A stretch of DNA of 32,000 bases from Pseudothioglobus sp. nBUS_23 (GCF_051201565.1 NZ_CP179200.1:600001-632000), one strand, 5' to 3'. Counted from the stretch's first letter, positions 14,201 to 32,000 are shown. Program-made: numbers and translations. The notes: a model not told the origin generated them from the sequence alone.

Positions 14201-14276
14201 GGGCGCTTAGCTCAGTTGGGAGAGCATCGCCCTTACAAGGCGAGGGTCACAAGTTCAAGTCTTGTAGCGCCCACCA
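14201..14276 (+). tRNA. tRNA-Val (anticodon UAC), CCA encoded
   Basis: Cloverleaf folded by hand: acceptor GGGCGCT/AGCGCCC, D-arm GCTC..GAGC, anticodon stem TCGCC/GGCGA with loop CTTACAA (TAC at 14234-14236), T-arm ACAAG-TTCAAGT-CTTGT, discriminator A, CCA. Confidence 0.93.
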
Positions 14277-14281
14277 AAAAC

Positions 14282-14358
14282 GGAGTGGTAGTTCAGCTGG
14301 TTAGAATACCTGCCTGTCACGCAGGGGGTCGCGGGTTCGAATCCCGTCCACTCCGCCA
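14282..14358 (+). tRNA. tRNA-Asp (anticodon GUC), CCA encoded
   Basis: Acceptor GGAGTGG/CCACTCC, anticodon stem CCTGC/GCAGG with loop CTGTCAC (GTC at 14316-14318), T-arm GCGGG-TTCGAAT-CCCGT, discriminator G, CCA. It lies 5 nt after tRNA-Val. Confidence 0.93.
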
Positions 14359-20799: not shown

Positions 20800-21372
20800 A
20801 TGATGAACTTGATGAGAAACAGTCTTCTATTGCCCTTAATGTTACTTTTCAGTATTGCAGCCAATGCTGGCTTTAACAAGATCTCTAATTCTGGTGAAAC
20901 GCTTCCTTTAGAGAGTGAGAGTTGGTCATGCGTTTTGGATAATGAAACATCACTCGTTTGGGAAGTTAAAACTGACAAGAAGGGCGTTCAATATGCTCTT
21001 AATACATACACCTGGTTTGATGGAGTGAGTGGGAGGGATAATGGCACCTTCAGTAAAAATTGCTACTGGGGCAAAAATTGTAACACTCAATCTTTTATTA
21101 AGGACATTAATAAGGCAGAACTTTGTGGCTATTCAGATTGGAGACTGCCAACTAGGGAGGAGCTTAACTCAATTGTTGACTATTACGGAGAGGGTGATTT
21201 ACTGATTGATGCTGATTTCTTTCCAAACACTCAGATGGATGGATACTGGACCTCTACTTCTGTTAACTCTATCCCTAAAATGGCCTATGAAACACCATTC
21301 TTCTATGGCGGCTCGATGGCTCGCGATAAGACCATTGACACTTTTGTAAGACTTGTCAGAAGTGCTGACTAG
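20800..21372 (+). CDS. Secreted DUF1566 (Lcl C-terminal domain) protein
   Basis: Signal peptide ending IAANA. DUF1566 hallmarks are LVWEVKTD, YSDWRLPTREEL and GYWTSTS. Confidence 0.7.
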   Translation: MMNLMRNSLLLPLMLLFSIAANAGFNKISNSGETLPLESESWSCVLDNETSLVWEVKTDKKGVQYALNTYTWFDGVSGRDNGTFSKNCYWGKNCNTQSFIKDINKAELCGYSDWRLPTREELNSIVDYYGEGDLLIDADFFPNTQMDGYWTSTSVNSIPKMAYETPFFYGGSMARDKTIDTFVRLVRSAD

Positions 21373-23056
21373 AGAGATCGATCAATCATTGTATGAGTCT
21401 TACTCTGATGATATTCCTCTTTTTCTGAAAAGAATCTACGCTGCAAGAGGGGTGTCTGAATCTCAACTTTCGATGGCTCTTCCAGGGCTCCTTAAACCGA
21501 ACTTTGATCAGCTCAATATTGCCCTCGAGCTTCTAGAGCGATGCCTTATAGAAGATAAGCGTATTTTAATCGTTGGAGACTTTGATGCAGACGGCGCAAC
21601 TGCCAGCGCTGTCGCTATTAGAGCGCTCAGACTTATGGGCGCAAAGTATGTTGACTTTTTGGTTCCTAACAGGTTCAAGCATGGCTATGGATTGAGTCCT
21701 GAGATTGTGAAGGAGGCTAAGCGTGACAAAGAGCCAGACCTCATTATTACTGTTGATAACGGCATATCGAGTAATGAGGGAGCTGCATTAGCGAGATCAC
21801 TTGATATTGATGTCATCATCACAGATCATCATCTTCCGCCAAATGAACTTCCAAATGCCAATGCAATAATTAATCCAAATCTCAGAGGGTGTGACTTTCC
21901 CTCGAAAAATTTAGCTGGGGTTGGCGTTAGTTTTTATTTGTTCTCATCTCTTAAGACTCACCTTGCAAAGCAGGGCTATTTTGAGAAAAATAACATTCAA
22001 AATCCTGACCTGAGAGTGCTTTTAGATTTAGTTGCACTTGGAACGGTAGCTGACGTTGTAAAACTGGATCAAAACAACAGAATTTTGGTAAATGAGGGAA
22101 TTAAGCGTATTCGTCAAAAGAACTGCTCAAAAGGCATCCTGGCAATCCTTGAGCTTACTAAGCGTCCAATTGAAACATTGCAGGCTTCAGACCTAGGATT
22201 TACTGTAGCTCCAAGAATTAATGCAGCAGGAAGGCTGAGTGATATTTCACAAGGGATAAGGTGTCTTCTCTCAGAAGATATGAATGATGCAAGAAGGTAT
22301 GCGCAAACGCTTGAAGAGTTCAATATTAAAAGGCGCAAAGAGCAGACAAGAATGCAGGATGAGGCGCTCGCTATTGTTGAAAGTCAAGCCATTGATCAGA
22401 GTGATTTCGCCATTGTGCTTTATGATGAGTCTTGGCATGAAGGAGTAGTTGGCATTGTAGCTGGAAAACTCAAAGAAACCTATCAGTGCCCCTCGGCTGT
22501 ATTTGCCAAAGCTGATGATGTTTTAAAGGGGTCTATACGCTCTATTCCTGATGTTCATATCAAAGACTTATTGGACCTTGTAGATCGAGACAATCCAGGA
22601 CTCATTGAGAAGTTTGGAGGGCATGCGATGGCTGCAGGCCTCACGATTAAACCTCAAAACTTTGAAAAGTTTAAAAATGCATTTACTGAGGCAATAACAA
22701 GGCATCTCAAAGGCAAAAAACCCATCATTGAGCTCTTAACTGATGGCCAACTTGACTTATCAGAAATCACATTTAAGAATGCAGATCTTTTGCGTCAAGC
22801 CTCTCCATGGGGGCAGGGATTTGAAGAGCCTATCTTCTATGGAGACTTCGAACTGTTGGAGCAAAGAGTTATTGGTGAAAAGCACCTGAAGTGCAATCTA
22901 AAGCTCCAAGGTACTAATTCAGTTCTGGAGGGGATTGCTTTTTTTCAAGAAAAGCTTGATTCCAAGAAGGTTAGGGCGGCATATAAACTAAACGTCAATT
23001 CATTTAGAGGAAACGAGTCCTTACAGCTGATGATTGAGTCTATTGAAAGTGCTTAA
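21353..23056 (+). CDS. recJ: Single-stranded-DNA-specific exonuclease RecJ
   Basis: DHH motifs (IVGDFDADGATA, DNGI, ITDHH), DHHA1 (GGHAMAAG) and a C-terminal OB region. No ATG lies near the conserved N-terminus, so the start is TTG at 21353 or GTG at 21362. Confidence 0.93.
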   Translation: MSEVLTREIDQSLYESYSDDIPLFLKRIYAARGVSESQLSMALPGLLKPNFDQLNIALELLERCLIEDKRILIVGDFDADGATASAVAIRALRLMGAKYVDFLVPNRFKHGYGLSPEIVKEAKRDKEPDLIITVDNGISSNEGAALARSLDIDVIITDHHLPPNELPNANAIINPNLRGCDFPSKNLAGVGVSFYLFSSLKTHLAKQGYFEKNNIQNPDLRVLLDLVALGTVADVVKLDQNNRILVNEGIKRIRQKNCSKGILAILELTKRPIETLQASDLGFTVAPRINAAGRLSDISQGIRCLLSEDMNDARRYAQTLEEFNIKRRKEQTRMQDEALAIVESQAIDQSDFAIVLYDESWHEGVVGIVAGKLKETYQCPSAVFAKADDVLKGSIRSIPDVHIKDLLDLVDRDNPGLIEKFGGHAMAAGLTIKPQNFEKFKNAFTEAITRHLKGKKPIIELLTDGQLDLSEITFKNADLLRQASPWGQGFEEPIFYGDFELLEQRVIGEKHLKCNLKLQGTNSVLEGIAFFQEKLDSKKVRAAYKLNVNSFRGNESLQLMIESIESA

Positions 23057-26000
23057 CTAAAACTTACAGGTCTTTTGTTTGGCCTTCGGAAGTGATCCAC
23101 AATATATATCCTCTGCTCTTTGACTTCCTTTATCAAAAGCCTTCTTAAGCCACTTTTTACCCTGATTAGGATCTTTCTTGACGCCATTACCATTCAGGTA
23201 GTGAGAGCCAAGCTGCTCCATTGCTGGAATCCACTCAAGAGAGGCAGATTTTTTAAGATTCTCTAACGATTTATCAGTATTACCAAAATTGGAATACATT
23301 TGAGAGAGAGCGAAGTGAGATTCCTGATTCTTGCTTCCTTTAGGATCAAGAACGATGGATCTTTCATACCAAAAGATAGCCTTCTTTTGATCCGTATCAA
23401 CATATTGATCAGCCTGATTGGTTGCACTCAGTGCACTACAAAAATAAGGCTTCCAGTAGCCATACTCTTCAGAGGCATAACCTTTTGATACAAGTTCTTC
23501 TCCGAGGTCTACCCCGTCAACGATGACTTGCGCAATAATTTTTGTGTTAGTCTTTCTTAAGTTGGTGAGTTTGATGCTTGATGCATTTTCAAGTTTTTGA
23601 GCGACATAATCCTTCACTTTAAGTCCTAATTCCATCTGTTTGGGGCAAGAGCGCGTCGCATCAGGTGCATCAATGTCTTTTAGACTTACCTTAATATTAG
23701 AGCCAGCGAGTTCGTGGGGATCTGCAATATCAACAATCAGTTTATCGCCATGAGTTACTTCAATAACTTTAGAGACTGTTGGGTCAGAGTCTGATGTCTC
23801 AACTTTCTTTGCCACTGTCGTTTTTGTCTCTTCTGTTTTTGCCACTTTTTTGATAACATCACCTTTTTTAGCTGTCAGATAAAAATAAATTTGTGAGTCG
23901 TTATACTTTCCGCTCAACTTTTTCTTATTGAGGTTTCCTTCAAACTCAACTAATTGATCTTCACAGCCGCTACAAGGGTGAAAATAAAATAGAGCTTTAA
24001 TGTCTCCATTTTGATTTATTCGACCCTCAAAACTAGCATAACTTGGCGTAACGATGCCCTTACTGTCTTGAGTGATGGTGACTATACCATTATTGACTTC
24101 AAGTGAGCCACTTCCAAGCTGAGTCATAGGAGACTGAACAAGTGTAAATGAATAATAGCCATCCAAGGCATCTGTAGATTTAATATTTTTAAATAGTTCT
24201 GATTTTTCAGAGCTAAATTTATCTTCTGTTATTTCTTTAACGACAGGTGTTTCTTTTTCTTCTGTTACAGTTTCTGTCTTGACAACAATGTCATCGATAC
24301 ATACTTCTAGGTTTCTAGAGGCCGCTATCATTACAGCACCTTCTTTAGCTCTATCATCATTAGTGCTAGCAACAACTTTTCCATTAACGAGGTACTTAAT
24401 ACTGTTCCCTAAAGCAATGAGCTTAATATCTGACCATTGATCACCTATGGCTGCTCTTTCACCGCTTGCTATTCCCTGATTGACTCTATTAGAAGGGTGA
24501 GCGAATTCTATTGAAGCGCGGCCAGGTATTTTGTTAATAGCTCTATATTGAGGTCCATTATTTCGACCTTTTCTAATATGTGTTTCTAAAGTCCCTAATT
24601 TTTTACTAGAAAGTTTTACTTTGTATGAGATAGAATAATTTTTCCAATTAGCACTTCCAAGCATAAAATCTGTCCAATTATTGGTTGCCTTGTTGCAATA
24701 CATTGCATTACCATCATTGTCCTGCTTAATGAACCAGTTGTTTTGCTCATCGACTACTCTTATCTTTCGCTGATCTGCATTTTCAAAGTCCTCGCTGAAG
24801 GATGCTGAGCCATCAGTAGAGGCGCCTTTGGCACTTGTTCCCCAAAATAACTTAGCATAGTAATTGTCCCAATATTCTTTTGCTTTTTTCTGAGACTCTT
24901 GTCGGGCTTTATTATTTAAAATAATCTGCTCAGGATTAATGGCTGGTTCTGCGGGTTTTTTTACAATTGATGTTGAAGCTGGCTTGCCATTTCTAATTGT
25001 CTCATAAACTATTTTTTTCCAATCGAAACTTCCTGGTTTGGGGTATTTCATACTGTCATGAATAGCTTGAGTCACTACAATTCTGCCTCTCTCAAAATCT
25101 ATGGTTATAGTTTGTCCACCATAACCATCCATGGCCATGACTGGTCTATTTTCCATCCCTTTAAATCCAGTATGAAAAAAACCACCATAACTGCCTGGGA
25201 TGCCAACTCTTCCAGTGCTTCCCTGTGCGCCATTTTTTGGTATTCTTCTTTCATGAATTGTTTTTAAATATTTACCAACGCAAGTATCGTTTTCCCAATC
25301 ATCAAGCATGGCTTTTGCGATTCTTAGATAGTCATAACGGGTCGTGTAAAAAGTATGCATTAGAGATTTTTCATCTTTTTTAGCAACTCCAGTTTTGTTA
25401 AAAAAGATCTCATCTCCAATTCTTATTTTTTTGGCAAATACATCATCTAAGAGGCGCTTAAAATCATCTTCACCGTACTTATACCAAAGATAACTCAGAA
25501 CTATATTTGGATTCGCATCGTTATAACTGTATTGAGCAAAAGATTTTTTTGAGCCTCTGAACTCATTCTTCATCATCATTTGAAGGGATGAGTCATTGAA
25601 AGTATTTAGTCCTTTTGGGTTAATGAAGTTATCATTTTTAATGTAGGCTGAGTCACCTGCTGACATATTTAAAAGGTTAATTAATTTTTGATTATGATAA
25701 AGCGTATTTTGAAGTATCGGCCAGTCATCTAATCTGGAGTCTACACTTTCAATTTTCCCTTCACATATCGCATGGCCAGCCAAATAGGAAGTGATACTTT
25801 TGCCCATTGACCTTGAATGATAAACAGATGAGTCTGTGAACATATCTCCAAATCTATCTTTAGGAGTGATTTCATCGATTACAATTTTATCGTCCTCATA
25901 TAAGAGGTAACTCAATAATGGCGTTGTTTGCATTTGTTGTTTGATGTATCTATCTTCTCGAAGATCAAATTGAAAGTTGTAAGGATTTGAGGCTTCAACT

Positions 26001-27757
26001 TTATGAAAACTTTCGCAGCATTGAGGCGCGTAATATAAATATTTATAAAGGAAATATCTCAAAGTTTCATTATTTGGATTGGCGCTTTCTGGGATCGAGA
26101 CTGTTCCTCCTGACATCTTAAAAGCGTCCCCATATAAATTAATATCGTTAGAATTAATTGTTTTTTCTCGTTTTTTAACAATATTCTTTATACAGGCATC
26201 TATATTTGATTTGCCGGAAGTAGTTTCAGTGCAATCATAATAATCGTCCCAGTATTGTTTTGCTTTTTTCTCAGCCTCTATAGCGGCATTTCTCTCCTTA
26301 ATTATTTGCTGAGAATCAACAACAGGCTCAGTAGATGGCTTGGATTTTGAACTAGGCTTGCCATTTTTTATTCTTTCATATGACATTTTTTTAAAATCAA
26401 TACCACCTGGTTGAGGAAATTTCATATTGTCATGAATGGCTTGAGTGGCAATAATTCTTCCTCTTTCAAAGTCGATTAATACAGTTTGACCTCCATATCC
26501 ATCCATACCCATGACAGGCCTATTTTCCATTCCTTTATAGCCAGTATGAAAAAAACCTCCATAACTTTGAGGTAAGCCAACCCTTCCTTCGTAGCCTTGG
26601 GAGCCATTTTTTGGTATCCTTCTTTCATGAATAGTTTTTAAATATTGACCAGCACAAGTATCGTTTTCCCAATCATCGAGCATGGCCTTTGCTATTCTTA
26701 GATAGTCATATCGGGCTGCGTAAAATTGACTCCATATACTTAGATCATCTTTTTTTGCGTCTTCATTTTTAAGAAAGAAGACCTCACCTTCAATTCTTGC
26801 TTTGTTCTTAAAAACATCATCCAAGAGCGCTTGAAAGTTATCAGCACCTAACTTATAAATAAGATACGAGCCGACAACATTTGGATTTAAATTATTATAA
26901 TTGTAGATGGAGTTTGATTTTTTCGAGCCTTTAAACTCCCTTTTCATGATGTCTTCGACAGTAGGGCTTGTGACAGCTCGATTTGAATTCGTAAATCTGT
27001 TAGACCCATTGAAATATGCTTGAGTGCCTGATGCCATATTCAACACATCTATCAATTTTTGATTATGATAAAGCGTGTTTTCAAGTATCGGCCAGTCATT
27101 TAATCTCGAGTCAACACTATCAATATACCCCTCACATATTGCATGACCTGCAACATAACCAATGAGGGTTTTTGCAACTGATTGTGAATGAAATTTACTT
27201 GAATCTCTAAACATACCGCCAAACCTATCTTTAGGCGTTATTTCATCAATTACAATTTCTCCATCTTCATATAGTAAATAGCTCAATAACCCAGTATCTT
27301 GCAATTGTTTTTTTATGTATCTATCTTCTCGAAGATTAGATTGAAATTGATAAGGATTATCAGAAGGTTCAACTAAGTAGGGATATCTTGGTGAACTATC
27401 TTCACAATGCAGTTCTTTACTATTTGGGCCACAAAAAGGGTGAATATTAAAAGAATATAAGTATCTATAAAGATAATATTGTAAGGTTTCAAAATTTGGG
27501 TTAGCATCTTCTGGTATTTCAGATATACCTCCAAATCGGTCGATTTTTTTAGAGCTCTGTTTGTTAGATGACTTTGAAGCTTTGGATGAAGAATTAGTTG
27601 ATGAAGAAGCATCATTACTGCTTCCGGCACAATTGTAGACAAAATAAGTCCCATCCGCAGAAATACTCCTTACTGGATCACTACCATCAGGGCAAGAGCC
27701 TGCATAGCTTTGTAATGAGAAAAAAGATAGAATTAAAAGAAGGAATATTTTTTTCAT
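23057..27757 (-). CDS. Giant exported multidomain protein: signal peptide, CPDG Cys-hairpin motif, Ser-rich linker, 2x class-C beta-lactamase-fold serine hydrolase unit, LamG/DUF1080-like jelly roll, orphan domain, SNase-like OB fold, Sel1-like repeats, Cys-loop tail
   Basis: Uninterrupted ORF of about 4.7 kb. MKKIFLLLILSFFSLQSYA signal peptide. SxxK (SVAK, SMGK) and HTG boxes occur in two repeated units. The W...W.NY...jelly-roll pattern ends in IDDIVV. The SNase-like block is HGDKLIVDI...LKDIDAPD...VIVDG.DLGEELVSKGYA. Sel1-like blocks are AIFWYERS... and QLGSHYLNGNGVKKDPNQGKKWLKKA. The ATG at 27757 is preferred over the TTG at 27766. Confidence 0.85.
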   Translation of the reverse strand: MKKIFLLLILSFFSLQSYAGSCPDGSDPVRSISADGTYFVYNCAGSSNDASSSTNSSSKASKSSNKQSSKKIDRFGGISEIPEDANPNFETLQYYLYRYLYSFNIHPFCGPNSKELHCEDSSPRYPYLVEPSDNPYQFQSNLREDRYIKKQLQDTGLLSYLLYEDGEIVIDEITPKDRFGGMFRDSSKFHSQSVAKTLIGYVAGHAICEGYIDSVDSRLNDWPILENTLYHNQKLIDVLNMASGTQAYFNGSNRFTNSNRAVTSPTVEDIMKREFKGSKKSNSIYNYNNLNPNVVGSYLIYKLGADNFQALLDDVFKNKARIEGEVFFLKNEDAKKDDLSIWSQFYAARYDYLRIAKAMLDDWENDTCAGQYLKTIHERRIPKNGSQGYEGRVGLPQSYGGFFHTGYKGMENRPVMGMDGYGGQTVLIDFERGRIIATQAIHDNMKFPQPGGIDFKKMSYERIKNGKPSSKSKPSTEPVVDSQQIIKERNAAIEAEKKAKQYWDDYYDCTETTSGKSNIDACIKNIVKKREKTINSNDINLYGDAFKMSGGTVSIPESANPNNETLRYFLYKYLYYAPQCCESFHKVEASNPYNFQFDLREDRYIKQQMQTTPLLSYLLYEDDKIVIDEITPKDRFGDMFTDSSVYHSRSMGKSITSYLAGHAICEGKIESVDSRLDDWPILQNTLYHNQKLINLLNMSAGDSAYIKNDNFINPKGLNTFNDSSLQMMMKNEFRGSKKSFAQYSYNDANPNIVLSYLWYKYGEDDFKRLLDDVFAKKIRIGDEIFFNKTGVAKKDEKSLMHTFYTTRYDYLRIAKAMLDDWENDTCVGKYLKTIHERRIPKNGAQGSTGRVGIPGSYGGFFHTGFKGMENRPVMAMDGYGGQTITIDFERGRIVVTQAIHDSMKYPKPGSFDWKKIVYETIRNGKPASTSIVKKPAEPAINPEQIILNNKARQESQKKAKEYWDNYYAKLFWGTSAKGASTDGSASFSEDFENADQRKIRVVDEQNNWFIKQDNDGNAMYCNKATNNWTDFMLGSANWKNYSISYKVKLSSKKLGTLETHIRKGRNNGPQYRAINKIPGRASIEFAHPSNRVNQGIASGERAAIGDQWSDIKLIALGNSIKYLVNGKVVASTNDDRAKEGAVMIAASRNLEVCIDDIVVKTETVTEEKETPVVKEITEDKFSSEKSELFKNIKSTDALDGYYSFTLVQSPMTQLGSGSLEVNNGIVTITQDSKGIVTPSYASFEGRINQNGDIKALFYFHPCSGCEDQLVEFEGNLNKKKLSGKYNDSQIYFYLTAKKGDVIKKVAKTEETKTTVAKKVETSDSDPTVSKVIEVTHGDKLIVDIADPHELAGSNIKVSLKDIDAPDATRSCPKQMELGLKVKDYVAQKLENASSIKLTNLRKTNTKIIAQVIVDGVDLGEELVSKGYASEEYGYWKPYFCSALSATNQADQYVDTDQKKAIFWYERSIVLDPKGSKNQESHFALSQMYSNFGNTDKSLENLKKSASLEWIPAMEQLGSHYLNGNGVKKDPNQGKKWLKKAFDKGSQRAEDIYCGSLPKAKQKTCKF
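24857..26134 (-). repeat. Intragenic tandem repeat, copy 2 (serine hydrolase unit, residues 545-970 of the giant ORF)
   Basis: See copy 1. The copies are separated by a 34-aa spacer (DCTETTSGKSNIDACIKNIVKKREKTINSNDINL). Confidence 0.9.
26237..27541 (-). repeat. Intragenic tandem repeat, copy 1 (serine hydrolase unit, residues 76-510 of the giant ORF)
   Basis: Alignable over its full length with copy 2. Long identical peptide runs and locally near-identical nucleotide stretches, for example 26666-26720 vs 25291-25345 and 27053-27115 vs 25681-25743. Confidence 0.9.
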
Positions 27758-27780
27758 ATTAAGCAATACACACTAAGAAT

Positions 27781-29322
27781 TTAAAACTTACATGTTGCTT
27801 GTTTGTCTGGGGTAAGAGAGCTGCAATAAACTTTTTCTGCCCTATCTTCGCCATGTGCATAAGCCTGTTTGAGCCAATATTTGGCCTCGCTTAAGTCTTT
27901 AGTAAATCCATCCCATCCATTAAGATAGTTTTCACCAAGCTGAAATTCACCTTCACTCCATCCTTGTTTTGCAGATTCGATGAGATGATTATTAGCAGAG
28001 ATAGAATCACCCAAACTTCTATATGCTATGTTGAGTTCAAATTCTGCTTTTCCTCTTTGAGAGCTATCAGGCTCCATTACGATTGCGCGCTCATACCAAA
28101 AAATGGCTTTATCAAAATCCTTGTTCCACATGTGCTGCTCTGCAGATAAATAGGCCGTCAAAGAGCTACAGATATAAGCTTTCCAGTATCCCCATTCATT
28201 TGATGCATAACCCTTAGATATTAATTCTTCCCCTAGGTCTTTACCATCCACAATGACTTGAGTGCGAATACCTTTATTTGTTTTTCTAAAGTTTTTTAGT
28301 TTAATACTTTGTGCATCTGCTAATTTTTGAGCAACAATGTCCTTAACCTTTTGACCAAGCTCCATTTGCTTTGGACAGGATTTAATGGCATCTGGAGCAT
28401 CAATATCCTTCAGAAATATTGTTAAACCGCTGCCAGCAAGTTCATGCGGCTCTGCAATATCAACAATAATCCTGTCGCCTTGAATGACTTCAATAATGTT
28501 AGATACTGTTGGATCCTTATCCGAGGTAGCGATTACTTTAGTAGAGGAAGAGCTTTGGTTGTTATTCGTTTTAGGAGCGCTGGTTTGTTTACAACCTTTT
28601 ATTCGTATAATTCCTCCAGCCCAATTCTCAACATCAATCCAAAGCTCAGCATTTGTTTTTTTCATGTTACTGGGATCAATTGGCTTAGATCTATTGTGCT
28701 TCGTTAGGCTCACATAACTTGGCCTTACTGGGACTTCTCCCTCTTGAACACCATAAAGAAAGTAGGCCATCCTTCCAACAATATGTCCATCATGAGTAAG
28801 CTTAAGATTCACCTCATCCTGCAAATAACTTGGATCAGTTGACAGACCGCCCATATCCCAAGCTGATCCTTTTGCAAAGCTTACCTTGGAGCCACTAATA
28901 ACAATTGCACCTCGCGCTGAAGACCATGACTCAATAGTTCCGCCAACAGAATCTTCGTAGTTGACTCTTCTCATATCAAAATTACAACGCCAATTGTCAG
29001 CGTTACTTGTGAGCTTGTGTTTGCTAAAGTCAAAATCAGTTTTGGAGAGAACTCTTTCAAGTAATTCTTGAAGTATGTCTGCAGCAAAAACAACCTCATA
29101 GGTTACTATTGAAGAATCTCTGGTGAGTGAAGAGCTGCTAGAGGAGGATGAGCTTTGACTTGATGAGTTTGAAGAATTATTACTCCCACCAGCACAATTA
29201 TAAACAAAGTATGTCCCGTCATCAGAAATAGATCTGACTGGATCACTCCCATCTGGACAATCACCAGCAAAGCTAAAAGTTGAAAAAAATAATAGAGTAA
29301 ATGCTAAAAATAATTTTTTCAT
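27781..29322 (-). CDS. Exported protein, paralogous at both ends to the giant ORF (signal peptide, CPDG Cys-hairpin motif, poly-Ser linker, orphan central region, SNase-like fold, Sel1-like repeats, Cys-loop tail)
   Basis: MKKLFLAFTLLFFSTFSFA signal peptide, GDCPDGSDPVRSISDDGTYFVYNCAGG. The C-terminal 248 aa are collinear with the last 245 aa of the giant ORF, down to the final ...TCKF. Confidence 0.85.
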   Translation of the reverse strand: MKKLFLAFTLLFFSTFSFAGDCPDGSDPVRSISDDGTYFVYNCAGGSNNSSNSSSQSSSSSSSSSLTRDSSIVTYEVVFAADILQELLERVLSKTDFDFSKHKLTSNADNWRCNFDMRRVNYEDSVGGTIESWSSARGAIVISGSKVSFAKGSAWDMGGLSTDPSYLQDEVNLKLTHDGHIVGRMAYFLYGVQEGEVPVRPSYVSLTKHNRSKPIDPSNMKKTNAELWIDVENWAGGIIRIKGCKQTSAPKTNNNQSSSSTKVIATSDKDPTVSNIIEVIQGDRIIVDIAEPHELAGSGLTIFLKDIDAPDAIKSCPKQMELGQKVKDIVAQKLADAQSIKLKNFRKTNKGIRTQVIVDGKDLGEELISKGYASNEWGYWKAYICSSLTAYLSAEQHMWNKDFDKAIFWYERAIVMEPDSSQRGKAEFELNIAYRSLGDSISANNHLIESAKQGWSEGEFQLGENYLNGWDGFTKDLSEAKYWLKQAYAHGEDRAEKVYCSSLTPDKQATCKF

Positions 29323-29388
29323 AATAATTTTTTTAATTTTTTTTCATATTTAAAGCGATTTAATATCACTTTAAAGCGTGATCAAATC

Positions 29389-30540
29389 TTATGAAAAAAT
29401 GTAATCATATAGTCGCGGCAATTTAGGGGTAAAGAAAACTTTATCAGCAATCAGATCGTGATCCAGTCCGAGTGCTTTTTCAATGCAAGCTGCACAGACA
29501 GAGCGGTAATCTATAGTAGACATGAGGTCTCTTTGTTCGAATTGTTCACTCTTAGAAAGTCCAGGCCACTGGGAGATAATATTGCTTTTAGTTATGGCGC
29601 CGCCCGCCAAAAGCCCAGCGGATCCATAACCATGATCAGACCCCCTTGTTCCGTTCTCAGAGACCGTCCTTCCAAACTCAGTGAGGGTAAGGATAATACT
29701 TCTATCCCAGGCATCTCCGAGACCATCCTTGTAACCAGCAATAATGTCATCAACAACGGCTAGCTGATTTCCATGTTGCCCATTTTCTTCAGCGCCCTGA
29801 TTAGCATGAGTGTCAAACTGATCAACTTTGATTACAGAAGCCAGTGGACCACCTTCTTGGGACATGACTTTGCCAGCATATTGGGCAAGACTGGCAGGAT
29901 CTCTAGGAACGATTACATTTGACTGAGTACTTTTTTGTTGGACTTTTTTGAAAACTTCTGCGCCATCACCCTCGTGAGTCATTGAAATATTTTGAATTAG
30001 ATTGGTTATTAAGTCACCAGATTTCAAAATGCTTGCTGGATAAAAGTTATCATTTTCATTGCTACCTCTTAAAATTAAAGGCATATCAAGAGACATAGCT
30101 CGTCCAGGTGTTTTTGCAAGATCTAGTGCTCGGCCGAGCCAGCCGGTCTTTTCAGAAAAAGGAGTCAATCCTGCTCCTTGCATTAAATTTTGTCCTTCAA
30201 AATGAGACCTTAACACATATGGAAAATTAGTAGCGTGAATGACGGCTGCATTGTTCTTAGCCATCAAACCAGCAAAATATTTAAAAGAGGGGTGCAGCCC
30301 AAAAAATGAGTTCAGCTTTAGATAGTTCTGCGATACCAGATCTTTTCTCATCTTTAATAAATTTGGGTCTCCAAATGGGGGGACAGCAGTCAGTCCATCC
30401 ATTCCTCCTTCTAGAATAATTACTGAAATAGTTCCAGGAGGTTTGTCCTGAGAATAGCCTGGAATCGGGAGGCCAGCTAAAAATAAAGAAGCACCAGATG
30501 CTTTTAAAAAATCTCTTCTTGTTAAATTGATATTAGGCAT
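29389..30540 (-). CDS. DUF1501 protein (sulfatase/alkaline-phosphatase-superfamily-like) with twin-arginine signal
   Basis: The N-terminal TRRDFLKASGASLFLAG is a canonical Tat motif. Blocks DTHANQ, LTEFGRT and GSDHGYGS are typical of DUF1501. Confidence 0.8.
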   Translation of the reverse strand: MPNINLTRRDFLKASGASLFLAGLPIPGYSQDKPPGTISVIILEGGMDGLTAVPPFGDPNLLKMRKDLVSQNYLKLNSFFGLHPSFKYFAGLMAKNNAAVIHATNFPYVLRSHFEGQNLMQGAGLTPFSEKTGWLGRALDLAKTPGRAMSLDMPLILRGSNENDNFYPASILKSGDLITNLIQNISMTHEGDGAEVFKKVQQKSTQSNVIVPRDPASLAQYAGKVMSQEGGPLASVIKVDQFDTHANQGAEENGQHGNQLAVVDDIIAGYKDGLGDAWDRSIILTLTEFGRTVSENGTRGSDHGYGSAGLLAGGAITKSNIISQWPGLSKSEQFEQRDLMSTIDYRSVCAACIEKALGLDHDLIADKVFFTPKLPRLYDYIFS

Positions 30541-31990
30541 TTTTTAACCCCATAAGTTCAGGACTACACATTAAAGCAATGAATTTTTCATTCTCGTACT
30601 TTCCAACTCGATTAACGAGATCTCGAGTGGCACTATTGGCTCCAATTCGATCCATAATTTCTGATGACGAGAATTGAGGGCGTCCAACTCTATAGATAGC
30701 ATCAGCAAACCTGATTCTTCGCTCAAACATTTCACCTGAGAGCCATTCATTTTTATCACTCGAGTATCCATCGGGCTGCCTTGCAAGCCAAAAACTCTGA
30801 CCCAGCTCTTCATAAGTTTTACGGTGATTCATGAGGTTATTATCATATCCAAAGACCTCATCCCAGCCCATGAAAAAAGTAGCATTGCTCAGCCTAATGG
30901 TTTGAAATAGCCAAGTCATTGGCCATTGGAACTTTGGCTCTTTCGATAGAATTGCTCTTTCAATAACAGCGGTATGAATTTGATCTAAATTACCATTTCC
31001 TTTTCTCCAGGCATTCTCGATATAGCTAACATCTGATTGGCTAGGATTGTCACTCACAAAGTGCTGGGCAAGTTTGATTGAAAGGTGAGAAATGGTATGC
31101 TCATGCATTGCTAGAAAATCTGTCAGCTCTCTTAAACCTCCTTTGCCCTGGTTGATGGTTTTACCCATTACTCTTTTAACTCCTGGCTGGGCCCAGGTTC
31201 TCTTGTATACATCCCAATGATCAGTCGTATTAGCTAACGCTCTCATTTCGTTTAATGGTTTTTCTAGCTCAGTTCCCCATCCCGCTAGAACATTTGCCGC
31301 ATTCCTAATATCAGTCTCAGAATATTTTGCTGATGGGGACACAGAGTGAAGCTCCAAAAGCTCTCTCCCTAAATTATCATTAAGGCCTGCCTGTCTGCCG
31401 TTTCTTCTTTGCTCTCTAGTTTCAGTTGAGTCCTCACCTGAGCTCCAGATATTGTCTAAATAAATCAGCATCGAAGGATGAGAGGTGGCCTTGTAAAGCA
31501 TTTCTGAAAATGAGCTATTTAAGTTAGCTAGTATCGCTTCATCTATTAAGTGACCAATGACGTTTTGATTGTCATGTATGTTGCCCGTTGTGAAATGATT
31601 TGCCCAAAAATTCATAAAGCGAATTTTTATTTGGTCCTGACCATAAACATTTCTATGAGAAAACTTCAAAGAATCTTTTTGTCCCATCAGATTTTTTTCC
31701 TCATTCGCTGTTTTAGCTGCCTGAGTATCTTGGCCATCAATCTTCTCTCTCTCTTTCTTTCGATTCGCTCTGTAAAGAGTCCACATCTCTGCCCTTTTCT
31801 TAAGGTTAGGCTGGAGCTCTCTAGGCCACTCCTTAATATCAGAGTTCATGGATTTAAAGCTTTTGATTCCAAGTGCTGGCGACTTGGCATTGAGTTGGCT
31901 TATTGCCCAGGACTTAATGTCATCAGGTAGTGGTGTTTCACCTCTAAACATAAGGCCAAGCTTCTGTGCAATCCTGAACTGCTCATTCAT
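30533..31990 (-). CDS. DUF1800 protein
   Basis: FWANHFT, LLELHSVS and LMCSPE(L/F) type blocks, size of about 485 aa, and an 8-nt overlap with the downstream DUF1501 gene (the usual DUF1800-DUF1501 pairing). No in-frame stop lies between the ATG at 31990 and the window edge, so the true start could be further upstream. Confidence 0.7.
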   Translation of the reverse strand: MNEQFRIAQKLGLMFRGETPLPDDIKSWAISQLNAKSPALGIKSFKSMNSDIKEWPRELQPNLKKRAEMWTLYRANRKKEREKIDGQDTQAAKTANEEKNLMGQKDSLKFSHRNVYGQDQIKIRFMNFWANHFTTGNIHDNQNVIGHLIDEAILANLNSSFSEMLYKATSHPSMLIYLDNIWSSGEDSTETREQRRNGRQAGLNDNLGRELLELHSVSPSAKYSETDIRNAANVLAGWGTELEKPLNEMRALANTTDHWDVYKRTWAQPGVKRVMGKTINQGKGGLRELTDFLAMHEHTISHLSIKLAQHFVSDNPSQSDVSYIENAWRKGNGNLDQIHTAVIERAILSKEPKFQWPMTWLFQTIRLSNATFFMGWDEVFGYDNNLMNHRKTYEELGQSFWLARQPDGYSSDKNEWLSGEMFERRIRFADAIYRVGRPQFSSSEIMDRIGANSATRDLVNRVGKYENEKFIALMCSPELMGLKNA

Positions 31991-32000
31991 AAAATAATTC

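What the first reader, a model, noticed from the sequence alone, without database searches (positions are those of the whole stretch)
23057..29322. Adjacent paralogous exported proteins with conserved N- and C-terminal modules and completely different central cargo
Seen directly: the 513-aa ORF (27781-29322) and the 1569-aa ORF (23057-27757) lie head to tail on the minus strand, about 23 nt apart. Both begin with MKK plus a hydrophobic signal peptide. Next comes a nearly identical motif, G(S/D)CPDGSDPVRSIS(A/D)DGTYFVYNCAG (about 27620-27700 vs 29185-29265), followed by a Ser/Asn-rich low-complexity linker. Both end with a module of about 245 aa (23057-23794 vs 27781-28527) that aligns end to end. 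That module reads DPTVS.hIEV..GD.hIVDIA.PHELAGS...LKDIDAPDA..SCPKQMELG.KVKD.VAQKL...SIKL.N.RKTN...QVIVDG.DLGEEL.SKGYAS.E.GYWK.Y.CS.L, then AIFWYER-type Sel1-like repeats, then C-x10-CKF-stop. Between these shared ends the short protein has an orphan region of about 180 aa. The long one has about 1250 aa of enzyme-like domains. Constant ends with an exchangeable middle is the reverse of classical polymorphic-toxin logic, which has a constant N-terminus and a variable C-terminus. I do not recognise the N-terminal motif or the overall architecture as a described family. The paired cysteines in every module fit an oxidising (periplasmic or extracellular) location.
Basis: partly seen in the sequence, partly recalled or inferred. 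Interest (0 to 1): 0.7.

Follow-up and report, generated by a model that had tools for sequence, protein, structure and literature searches.

The report
Shared export tag on modular exoproteins
Two neighbouring genes of a marine SUP05-clade bacterium encode exported proteins assembled from a lineage-specific kit of interchangeable modules, and their shared N-terminal piece is an undescribed, very strongly conserved 22-residue cysteine-bracketed tag carried by well over a hundred different secreted enzymes and binding proteins.

Summary
Two head-to-tail genes, 513 aa and 1566 aa, share an N-terminal leader (26 of 29 residues identical) and a C-terminal module of about 250 aa (55% identical).

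The interpretation needs revising. The two ends are independent, shuffled modules, not a matched frame around a cargo.

- **Leader.** It consists of an SPase-I-type signal peptide, then C-P-D-G-S-[E/D]-P-x-[K/R]-S-x-S-x-D-G-T-Y-[F/Y]-V-x-x-C, then a Ser/Asn-rich linker. I found it on 141 proteins, almost all from Thioglobaceae. Their cargos include FG-GAP repeats, polysaccharide and alginate lyases, a GH5 cellulase, serine hydrolases and an HExxH protein. Pfam and NCBIfam have no model for it.
- **C-module.** It is a degenerate staphylococcal-nuclease-like fold that lacks the catalytic arginines, followed by three Sel1/TPR repeats. It is one of several alternative C-terminal accessory modules.
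- **The "orphan" middle of the short protein.** It is a recurrent, confidently modelled β-domain.
- **The middle of the long protein.** It holds two tandem SxxK/HTG serine hydrolases, a ConA-like domain and a small β-domain.

Proteins with the same two ends and other middles do exist (P0124, P0125, P0126, P0128), and some sit at this same variable locus.

My preferred reading is that the leader is a post-Sec targeting or retention handle and the C-module is a non-catalytic binding module. Neither role has been tested. The database name "thermonuclease" is probably a misnomer.

The parts
29266..29322 (-). Short protein, signal peptide (residues 1-19, MKKLFLAFTLLFFSTFSFA), with a predicted SPase I site after S-F-A
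   Evidence: Sequence. Family statistics: Ala at -3 relative to the Cys in 128/136 leaders and a small residue at -5. The residue at -1 is S, G, D or K, which rules out a lipobox.
29194..29259 (-). Short protein, Cys22-Cys43 tag (CPDGSDPVRSISDDGTYFVYNC)
   Evidence: 26/29 identical to the long protein. Twelve near-invariant positions across 136 unique leaders. No Pfam or NCBIfam hit.
29110..29193 (-). Short protein, Ser/Asn-rich low-complexity linker
   Evidence: Sequence. AF2 pLDDT below 50.
28588..29109 (-). Short protein, 'midS' β-domain (residues 72-245). Recurrent, no Pfam model, conserved Cys113/Cys244
   Evidence: hmmsearch envelope. AF2 pLDDT 91.6, pTM 0.81. Only weak Foldseek hits to LolA, TbpB and BT2262, TM about 0.3. 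Found in 44 proteins, also in tandem copies and with other partner modules.
28156..28533 (-). Short protein, degenerate SNase-like (OB-fold) domain, residues 264-389
   Evidence: Pfam PF00565 at 21.0 bits, equal to the cut-off. hhalign against staphylococcal nuclease E=9e-5. R35 and R87 are absent and D40 varies across the family.
27781..28125 (-). Short protein, three Sel1/TPR repeats plus the C-terminal C-x10-C-K-F loop and stop codon
   Evidence: Pfam Sel1/TPR. PDB Sel1-repeat proteins, E=3.7e-11. AF2 pLDDT above 90. Foldseek hits to three-repeat TPR domains, TMt 0.6-0.7.
27623..27757 (-). Long protein, leader (signal peptide plus Cys22-Cys43 tag). The ATG at 27757 is preferred over the TTG at 27766
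27533..27622 (-). Long protein, Ser/Asn/Lys-rich linker
   Evidence: Sequence.
26357..27532 (-). Long protein, serine-hydrolase copy 1 (β-lactamase/DD-peptidase fold). Motifs S193-V-A-K, Y-N-N near residue 287, H404-T-G
   Evidence: Pfam PF00144. Motif positions. 62% identical to copy 2.
24983..26110 (-). Long protein, serine-hydrolase copy 2. Motifs S650-M-G-K, Y-N-D near residue 745, H862-T-G
   Evidence: Pfam PF00144, 33.9 bits against a cut-off of 27. Weak alignment of the SxxK region to class C β-lactamases. Motif positions.
24266..24787 (-). Long protein, ConA-like / DUF1080 (3-keto-disaccharide-hydrolase-like) domain
   Evidence: Pfam PF06439 at 24.7 bits, just under the 26.8 cut-off. 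Envelope.
23897..24181 (-). Long protein, small recurrent β-domain ('betaFDG', DG-YSF...G-LE...NG...FEG-I...G-I)
   Evidence: No Pfam hit. 33 copies in 26 proteins of the family, usually C-terminal and often in tandem.
23426..23803 (-). Long protein, degenerate SNase-like domain
   Evidence: Pfam PF00565, 27.9 bits against a cut-off of 21..
23057..23398 (-). Long protein, Sel1/TPR repeats plus the C-x10-C-K-F end and stop codon
   Evidence: Pfam Sel1, 43.3 bits against a cut-off of 30.7..

Best explanation
Both genes encode Sec-exported, disulfide-bonded exoproteins of a Candidatus Pseudothioglobus (SUP05 / Arctic96BD-19 clade) bacterium. They are assembled from a lineage-specific kit of shuffled modules. 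Every member starts with the same leader: an SPase-I signal peptide, a 22-residue Cys-bracketed segment, and a flexible Ser/Asn/Thr-rich linker. From its alternating residue pattern and central D-G, I infer that this segment forms a disulfide-stapled β-hairpin. A cargo follows the leader, and often one of several alternative C-terminal accessory modules follows the cargo. The short protein is leader + a β-domain of unknown ligand + a degenerate SNase-like OB fold + three Sel1/TPR repeats. The long protein is leader + two tandem R61/AmpC-type serine hydrolases with intact SxxK and HTG motifs + a ConA-like domain + a small β-domain + the same SNase-like/Sel1 module. The two genes share 'constant ends' because both drew the same leader and the same accessory module from this kit. 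What is shown: the architecture, the breadth of the family, the purifying selection on the leader, and the loss of the nuclease catalytic residues. What is inferred: after Sec export and signal-peptide cleavage, the exposed hairpin tag is recognised by a common partner, such as an outer-membrane or secretion component or a surface polymer. That would route or tether this whole set of enzymes, with the linker acting as a spacer. I also infer that the SNase-like/Sel1 module is a non-catalytic binding module that holds the cargo on a substrate or partner.
For: Organism and conserved locus: orthologues 88-98% identical, named Ca. Pseudothioglobus singularis 'thermonuclease family protein', in the synteny MFS - 548-aa gene - DUF1800 - DUF1501 - short - long - recJ. 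Breadth of the leader: about 95 of the best 150 representatives (50%-identity clusters) match only residues 1 to ~60. 141 proteins in my set carry it. The genome scan found 48 exact-pattern matches in 40 stretches, almost all in Thioglobaceae, with at least 8 in a single-cell genome and tandem arrays of three genes. Cargo census of 51 leader proteins: FG-GAP 20, PF14099 polysaccharide lyase 7, Sel1 7, alginate lyase 5, SNase 3, β-lactamase 2, GH5 1, MORN 1, GHL15 1. Constraint on the leader: near-invariant C, D, G, S, P, S, S, D, G, Y, C across 136 unique leaders. For codons 22-45, short versus long, pS=0.78 (saturated) and pN=0.063, so conservation comes from selection, not recent gene conversion. 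It is not a lipobox, because D or K occur at -1 and an A-x-A-type site sits two residues before the Cys. C-module: Pfam SNase plus Sel1. R35 and R87 are absent, D40 is replaced by N, Y or V in family members, and there is an invariant extra 'AEPHxLAG' insert. Shuffling: the architecture table. P0124 and P0232 appear, from reading their N-terminal sequences, to share one cargo but carry different C-modules. The same locus holds different leader-cargo-C-module genes in other strains.
Against: No experiment or partner gene supports a targeting or anchoring role for the tag. AF2 models the leader with pLDDT below 40, so the hairpin is only inferred from the residue pattern. I could not determine whether these proteins end up in the periplasm, on the surface or released, nor whether the organism has a type II secretion system. 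A 96%-identical leader gene sits in a Ca. Njordibacter genome, so any partner would have to be either general or transferred with it. The SNase-like assignment rests on threshold-level scores (21-28 bits; hhalign probability 59%) and a low-confidence model (pLDDT 40-68). Activity with an alternative catalytic arrangement is not excluded, since D21 and a D at the E43 position are mostly kept.
Confidence: 0.6

Rival explanations
1. This is only a local tandem duplication followed by domain accretion. The shared ends are leftovers of common ancestry with no role of their own.
For: The genes are adjacent and co-oriented. The long gene contains an internal tandem duplication, with copies 62% identical. 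Relatives have one hydrolase copy (L004, 1127 aa; P0126).
Against: The same leader sits on 141 proteins with unrelated cargos at many loci. At least four other middles lie between the same two ends. Synonymous sites are saturated while the tag is 92% identical at the protein level.
Confidence: 0.05
2. This is a multigene family of variable surface proteins. Its conserved 5' end, comprising signal peptide and tag, is kept as a recombination handle for swapping cassettes, giving surface diversification against phage or grazers. On this view the tag is not a recognition element.
For: The MFS-recJ interval is a variable spot that holds different leader genes in different strains. Tandem leader genes in L038 and L039 have lower pS, 0.22-0.47. 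The signal peptide itself is unusually conserved, with S at -8 in 135/136 and Q at -6 in 120/136. C-terminal modules are exchanged on what looks like the same cargo.
Against: In the window pair, the DNA of the leader has diverged to saturation at silent sites. That leaves little identity to drive homologous recombination. The conservation is at the amino-acid level, with specific invariant residues. The cargos are mostly enzymes, not repeat antigens.
Confidence: 0.15
3. The proteins are lipoproteins. Cys22 would be the lipidated residue and the conserved segment a lipoprotein sorting or surface-export signal.
For: Many leaders read A-G-S-C, A-A-G-C or A-G-G-C, which fits a loose lipobox pattern. 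One virus-like contig (L051) has a canonical L-V-G-C lipobox seven residues upstream of the same CPDGSEP tag.
Against: The residue before Cys22 is D in the window's short protein and its orthologues and K in others, and both are disallowed at -1. Position -3 relative to a lipobox cleavage would be A or G rather than L, V or I. An A-x-A SPase I site is conserved two residues upstream. The strictly co-conserved Cys43 suggests a Cys22-Cys43 disulfide, which is incompatible with lipidation of Cys22.
Confidence: 0.07
4. They are secreted nucleases, as annotated ('thermonuclease family protein', 'endonuclease YncB'), fused to accessory domains. The C-module would be the catalytic business end.
For: Pfam PF00565 hit at or above the cut-off. 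Database names. D21 and an acidic residue at the E43 position are mostly retained.
Against: Both catalytic arginines (R35, R87) are missing in all 14 aligned members. The Ca2+ ligand D40 is N, Y or V in several members. The most conserved feature is an insert absent from SNase. The module is appended to lyases and hydrolases in the way a binding module would be.
Confidence: 0.1
5. This is an inverted polymorphic-toxin or effector system, with constant delivery and anchoring ends and a variable toxic middle.
For: Constant ends with variable middles do occur. There is a sub-threshold Ntox17 match, E=0.012-0.6, against a 25-bit cut-off.
Against: No toxin family reaches threshold. No small immunity-like gene follows either ORF, and recJ abuts the long gene's stop codon. 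The middles are carbohydrate-active-enzyme-like, hydrolase or binding domains. The two ends assort independently.
Confidence: 0.03

Closest known systems
Short, family-wide sorting or docking modules on diverse secreted enzymes (T9SS C-terminal domain, GlyGly-CTERM/rhombosortase, PEP-CTERM/exosortase, cellulosomal dockerin plus linker)
   Same: One short, highly conserved module joined by a low-complexity linker to many unrelated enzymes and binding proteins within one lineage. The cargo spectrum is dominated by polysaccharide-active enzymes and FG-GAP repeat proteins.
   Different: This module is N-terminal, directly after an SPase I site, whereas those are C-terminal. It is only 22 residues bracketed by two cysteines. 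It has no transmembrane segment and no sequence match to any of those families (no Pfam or NCBIfam hit). No processing enzyme or receptor has been identified.
CsgA N22 targeting segment of curli subunits (from my own knowledge of the field, not tested here)
   Same: About 22 residues at the mature N-terminus, exposed after Sec cleavage, that could direct a periplasmic protein to an outer-membrane route.
   Different: No sequence similarity. CsgA N22 has no disulfide. The curli segment serves one or two substrates, not more than a hundred.
Staphylococcal nuclease / thermonuclease family (PF00565), including non-catalytic SN-like OB folds
   Same: Sequence match over about 77-97 residues, with GD..., (I/V)DxP(D/E) and ...DG.(D)L..(E)L...G.A motifs in register.
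   Different: R35 and R87 are absent, D40 is variable and E43 is replaced by D. There is an extra invariant AEPHxLAG insert and a conserved disulfide. It is always fused to Sel1 repeats.
Sel1-like / TPR three-repeat peptide-binding domains
   Same: Pfam Sel1 and PDB Sel1-repeat hits. The AF2 model superposes on three-repeat TPR domains, TMt 0.6-0.7.
   Different: It ends in a conserved C-x10-C-K-F (or C-G-C-E-F) loop. The ligand is unknown.
Streptomyces R61 DD-peptidase / class C β-lactamase / family VIII esterase fold (PF00144)
   Same: SxxK, Y-x-N-like and H-T-G motifs are present in both copies. Pfam score is above the cut-off.
   Different: Very distant from any solved structure (E about 0.006 over 66 residues). 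It is present as a tandem pair inside a multi-module exoprotein. The substrate is unknown.
LolA / TbpB-handle / SusCD-associated lipoprotein half-barrels, as the nearest folds to the middle domain of the short protein
   Same: A curved antiparallel β-sheet with short helices. These are the best Foldseek hits.
   Different: TM-scores are only 0.28-0.35 with rmsd 7-10 Å and no hit below E=1e-3. This is a resemblance, not membership.

Membership tests
Staphylococcal nuclease / thermonuclease (PF00565) | Sequence match to the SNase profile above the curated cut-off | tested here: met
   Long protein 27.9 bits against 21. Short protein 21.0 against 21, exactly at the cut-off. hhalign E=9e-5, probability 59%.
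Staphylococcal nuclease / thermonuclease (PF00565) | Catalytic Arg35, Arg87 and Glu43, and Ca2+ ligands Asp21, Asp40 and Thr41 | tested here: not met
   R35 is replaced by F, L or I. R87 falls in a gap or aligns to G or K. D40 is D, N, Y or V across members. E43 is D, K or E. Only D21 is mostly kept.
Sel1 repeat (PF08238) | Profile match above the cut-off and a helical-repeat structure | tested here: met
   Long protein 43.3 bits against 30.7. Short protein 30.5 against 30.7, borderline. PDB Sel1-repeat protein 8sxq, E=3.7e-11. AF2 helical repeats with pLDDT above 90.
β-lactamase / transpeptidase-like serine hydrolases (PF00144) | Profile match plus the SxxK, YxN and (K/H)(T/S)G motifs | tested here: met
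   33.9 bits against 27. S193-VAK and S650-MGK, Y-N-N and Y-N-D, H404-TG and H862-TG. Catalytic activity was not tested.
3-keto-disaccharide hydrolase / DUF1080 (PF06439) | Profile match above the cut-off | tested here: inconclusive
   24.7 bits against a 26.8 cut-off when the domain is scanned alone. 19.6 bits in the whole protein.
Bacterial lipoproteins (lipobox / SPase II substrates) | [LVI][ASTVI][GAS]-C lipobox with only a small uncharged residue at -1 | tested here: not met
   Position -1 is D in the window's short protein and D or K in 9 of 136 leaders. Position -3 is G or A. An A-x-A SPase I site is conserved upstream.
Polymorphic toxin systems | A toxin domain and an adjacent cognate immunity gene | tested here: not met
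   No toxin family reaches the cut-off (Ntox17 10.8-16.3 bits against 25). No small ORF lies downstream, and recJ abuts the stop codon.
Known protein-sorting tags (T9SS CTD, PEP-CTERM, GlyGly-CTERM, dockerin, YSIRK and others) | Match to the family's Pfam or NCBIfam model | tested here: not met
   No family covers residues 1-70 of either protein at E<=1 in Pfam or NCBIfam.
Known protein-sorting tags (functional class) | The tag is required for localisation, and a dedicated recognition or processing partner exists | not testable with these tools
   This needs genetics, proteomics or localisation experiments. No partner gene was identified in the neighbourhoods examined.
LolA-like fold (middle domain of the short protein) | Structural superposition with TM above 0.5 | tested here: not met

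The most novel reading that the evidence does not exclude
The Cys-bracketed 22-residue segment plus linker is a new class of N-terminal, post-Sec sorting or docking tag. On this reading it works as a 'dockerin-like' disulfide hairpin recognised by a dedicated outer-membrane or surface receptor. It would define and route essentially the whole polymer-degrading exoproteome of the heterotrophic SUP05 / Arctic96BD-19 clade. The SNase-like/Sel1, 'betaFDG' and 'KPLRH' modules would then be new substrate- or surface-binding modules.
Probability: 0.35. Interest if true: 0.8.

Novelty: new variant of a known kind. Interest (0 to 1): 0.62.

Why it matters
Pseudothioglobus and its SUP05-clade relatives are abundant marine bacteria with small genomes. 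How such cells deploy extracellular enzymes without losing them by diffusion is an open question. A single, strongly constrained N-terminal tag shared by more than a hundred lyases, hydrolases, FG-GAP proteins and binding modules is a concrete handle on that question.

- It defines the candidate exoproteome of the clade by sequence alone.
- It predicts a common recognition partner that can be sought by pull-down.
- It supplies several unannotated domain families (the tag, midS, betaFDG, KPLRH and the degenerate SNase/Sel1 module) that current databases label 'hypothetical' or, misleadingly, 'thermonuclease'.

Tried and rejected
1. **Lipoprotein reading of the leader.** Rejected on lipobox statistics.
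2. **Recent gene conversion as the cause of leader identity.** Rejected, because silent sites are saturated.
3. **'Leader-only' small secreted peptides.** The profile search returned 45-81-aa ORFs. The two I examined on long contigs come from one assembly with many frameshifts (JGI 3300047157), where neighbouring genes are also split. I treat these as artefacts.
4. **Profile search of the 5.8-billion-protein index with the leader alignment.** It listed only short fragments, so it gave no cargo census or reliable count.
6. **Promoter and terminator scan of 22800-32000.** Nothing above the shuffled background, so co-transcription remains undecided.
7. **Literature searches on Thioglobus/Pseudothioglobus secretion, FG-GAP and sorting signals.** Nothing relevant was found.
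8. **Single-linkage clustering of cargos.** It lumped 65 of 74 proteins into one component because of shared accessory modules. This shows shuffling but is useless for counting cargo types.
9. **Rfam and tRNA scans.** Only two tRNAs were found, far from the finding.

Full report
**1. Checking the observation**

Both are on the minus strand, 23 nt apart. BLASTP of one against the other gives 149/273 identities (55%, E=2e-88) for the C-terminal module and 26/29 identities (E=5e-14) for residues 17-45. No other copy of either motif lies in the window. The cysteines are paired module by module.

**2. Organism and locus**

Orthologues of the short protein, 88-98% identical, come from marine metagenomes and from Candidatus Pseudothioglobus singularis. 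There NCBI names the protein 'thermonuclease family protein' and JGI names it 'endonuclease YncB'. The locus is syntenic in several genomes:

thrS-infC-rpmI-rplT-pheST - MFS - 548-aa gene - DUF1800 - DUF1501 - short - long - (convergent) recJ - Lcl_C - lspA - fabI - ppiD

**3. The known pieces**

- Pfam finds SNase (PF00565) plus Sel1/TPR in the shared C-module.
- In the long protein it also finds two β-lactamase-fold domains (PF00144) and a sub-threshold 3-keto-disaccharide-hydrolase/ConA-like domain.
- The two hydrolase copies are 62% identical. Both keep SxxK, Y-N-[N/D] and H-T-G, so they look catalytically competent.
- They are very distant from any solved structure.
- A profile of 14 C-modules aligned to staphylococcal nuclease (E=9e-5) shows that both catalytic arginines are absent in all members. 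D40 is N, Y or V in several members, and E43 is usually D. An insert, 'AEPHxLAG', and a Cys pair are invariant.

The 'thermonuclease' label is therefore probably wrong in functional terms. This looks like a non-catalytic SN-like OB fold fused to a three-repeat Sel1/TPR domain.

**4. The "orphan" middle of the short protein**

It has no Pfam hit. However, an exhaustive HMMER search of 1.84 billion representatives found it in many other architectures. With a 32-sequence alignment, AF2 models it at pLDDT 91.6 and pTM 0.81 as a β-rich domain with a conserved Cys pair. Foldseek against PDB gives only weak LolA, TbpB-handle and BT2262 resemblances with TM about 0.3. It is a real, recurrent, unannotated domain whose fold I could not name.

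**5. The leader**

The same representative search showed that about 95 of the best 150 hits match only residues 1 to ~60 of the query. These hits are proteins of 59-791 aa whose remaining sequence is unrelated.

A degenerate DNA pattern for the motif found 48 matches in 40 stretches of the 185,579-species genome set. Nearly all are in SUP05-clade, Pseudothioglobus or Thioglobus genomes. One partial single-cell genome has at least 8 copies, and there are tandem arrays of three genes. The 548-aa gene two genes upstream of the short gene, just beyond the window's end, also carries the leader.

Across 136 unique leaders the pattern is:

...S-x-Q-[S/G]-[F/Y/L]-A-[G/A]-[S/G/D/K]-C-P-D-G-S-[E/D]-P-[V/I]-[K/R]-S-[I/V]-S-x-D-G-[T/S]-Y-[F/Y]-V-[Y/F]-x-C

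The Cys is at residue 22 in 127 proteins. D or K directly before the Cys excludes a lipobox. The conserved small-x-small site two residues upstream fits SPase I. That would leave the Cys-bracketed segment at the mature N-terminus, followed by a Ser/Asn/Thr-rich linker.

Between the two window genes, codons 22-45 have pS=0.78 (saturated) and pN=0.063 (alignment). The identity therefore reflects long-term purifying selection on the peptide, not recent gene conversion. Neither Pfam nor NCBIfam covers the region. Database names are 'hypothetical protein', and my literature searches found nothing.

**6. Cargo and shuffling**

A Pfam census of 51 leader proteins gives FG-GAP 20, PF14099 polysaccharide lyase 7, Sel1 7, alginate lyase 5, SNase 3, β-lactamase 2, plus GH5, MORN, GHL15, PG_binding and SHOCT. 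One cargo has an HExxH motif.

I built local HMMs for eight modules. They give architectures of the form leader - cargo - (nothing | 1-3 'betaFDG' β-domains | 1-2 'KPLRH' modules | SNase-like+Sel1 | betaFDG+SNase-like+Sel1).

Proteins with the window's two ends and other middles exist:

| Protein | Length | Middle |
|---|---|---|
| P0124 | 723 aa | unassigned cargo X |
| P0125 | 961 aa | alginate-lyase-like + betaFDG |
| P0126 | 739 aa | one serine hydrolase |
| P0128 | 592 aa | PF14099 lyase |

Conversely, the ends also occur apart:

- The C-module occurs behind a different Cys-containing leader (P0122, P0131).
- It also occurs at the N-terminus of long Sel1 proteins (P0140, P0146).
- P0124 and P0232 appear, from reading their sequences, to share a cargo but end in different modules.
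- The middle domain of the short protein occurs in tandem copies, or with MORN, ConA-like, KPLRH or betaFDG partners.

The ends are therefore independent modules, not a coupled frame.

**7. The locus is variable**

- In one relative, the whole MFS-recJ interval holds a single gene, P0124.
- In another, P0128 follows MFS and precedes DUF1800.
- L004 has a long-gene homologue with a single hydrolase copy.
- L002 and L003 have the long gene split by a frameshift.

**8. Mechanism**

Shown:
- export signal, paired cysteines and modular architecture;
- strong constraint on the tag;
- a lineage-wide set of cargos rich in polymer-degrading and binding domains;
- loss of the nuclease catalytic residues.

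Inferred:
- The tag, probably a disulfide-stapled β-hairpin, is a common recognition handle after Sec export. It would serve for outer-membrane translocation or for tethering at the cell surface, with the linker as a spacer.
- The C-terminal accessory modules, including the SNase-like/Sel1 unit shared by the two window genes, bind substrate or partner.

The hairpin itself is inferred from the alternating residue pattern around the central D-G, because AF2 gives low confidence there.

Rivals considered: mere duplication, a recombination handle in a variable surface-protein family, lipoprotein anchoring, an active nuclease, and an inverted polymorphic toxin. Each is weighed in the rival section. 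Only the recombination-handle idea keeps appreciable weight.

**9. Comparison with known systems, and novelty**

In function, the closest analogues are short lineage-wide sorting or docking modules: the T9SS CTD, GlyGly-CTERM, PEP-CTERM, dockerins and the CsgA N22 segment. This tag differs from them in position (N-terminal, post-SPase I), size, its disulfide, and the absence of any sequence match. No partner is known.

I classify the finding as a new variant of a known kind: a modular exoprotein family with a shared sorting or docking tag. It also contains several unannotated domain families. The interest is moderate to high for marine microbiology and protein secretion, but it depends on experimental proof that the tag has a sorting or anchoring role.

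Noticed in passing
L001:5589-7232 (just beyond the window's 32000 end, upstream of the DUF1800 gene at 30533-31990): A third leader-bearing gene (548 aa): leader + an unassigned ~410-aa middle (no Pfam family on record) + a 'KPLRH' C-terminal module. It belongs to the same locus, so the window shows only two of three leader genes there.
   Followed up: partly
L002:14300-14700 and the same place in L003: The long-gene orthologue is split into 937-aa and 535-aa ORFs by a frameshift just after the second hydrolase copy. This is seen in two independent assemblies. It could be a pseudogene or a systematic sequencing error.
   Followed up: partly
L004:4818-8201; window 24983-27532: A more distant relative has a 1127-aa version with only one serine-hydrolase copy. 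The tandem duplication in the window's long gene (copies 62% identical) is therefore lineage-specific.
   Followed up: partly
L030:6027-7250 (Candidatus Njordibacter sp. Uisw_058 chromosome): A leader-bearing gene with an HExxH motif (HEIYH) is 96% identical to a gene in a SUP05 single-cell genome (L044). Its GC content is 33% against 43% for its surroundings. This looks like recent horizontal transfer out of Thioglobaceae.
   Followed up: partly
L051:2241-3629 (IMG/VR contig IMGVR_UViG_3300031608_001091): A virus-classified contig encodes an FG-GAP protein in which the same CPDGSEP...C tag follows a canonical lipobox (LLVGC) by seven residues. Nucleotide-sugar-type dehydrogenase/epimerase-like genes (judged by eye from the ORF translations) lie next to it.
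   Followed up: no
P0122, P0131, P0133, P0144, P0147, P0150, P0160 (proteins): A second conserved leader, signal peptide + [Y/I]LDDW.DD..CGWM..P.PPE.....V.KR.L.C, replaces the CPDGS leader in front of the same middle domain and C-module. A similar Cys-bracketed segment occurs internally in P0216 and P0153.
   Followed up: no
window 23056/23057: The last base of the recJ stop codon (23056) directly abuts the stop codon of the convergent long gene (23057). There is no spacer for a terminator.
   Followed up: no
window 20800-21372: A 190-aa protein with an Lcl C-terminal domain (PF07603, E=8e-26) overlaps the recJ start. It is a conserved neighbour in all syntenic loci.
   Followed up: no
window 29389-31990: A DUF1800/DUF1501 gene pair lies directly upstream of the short gene. 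The DUF1501 protein starts with an RRDFLK motif, which looks like a twin-arginine (Tat) signal. The pair is present in some relatives of the locus and absent in others (L046).
   Followed up: partly
L049, L050 (JGI sample 3300047157): Many 45-81-aa 'leader-only' ORFs returned by the profile search come from an assembly with pervasive frameshifts, where neighbouring housekeeping genes are also split. They are artefacts, not small peptides.
   Followed up: yes
window 14201-14358: tRNA-Val(TAC) and tRNA-Asp(GTC) lie in tandem. They are unrelated to the finding.
   Followed up: no
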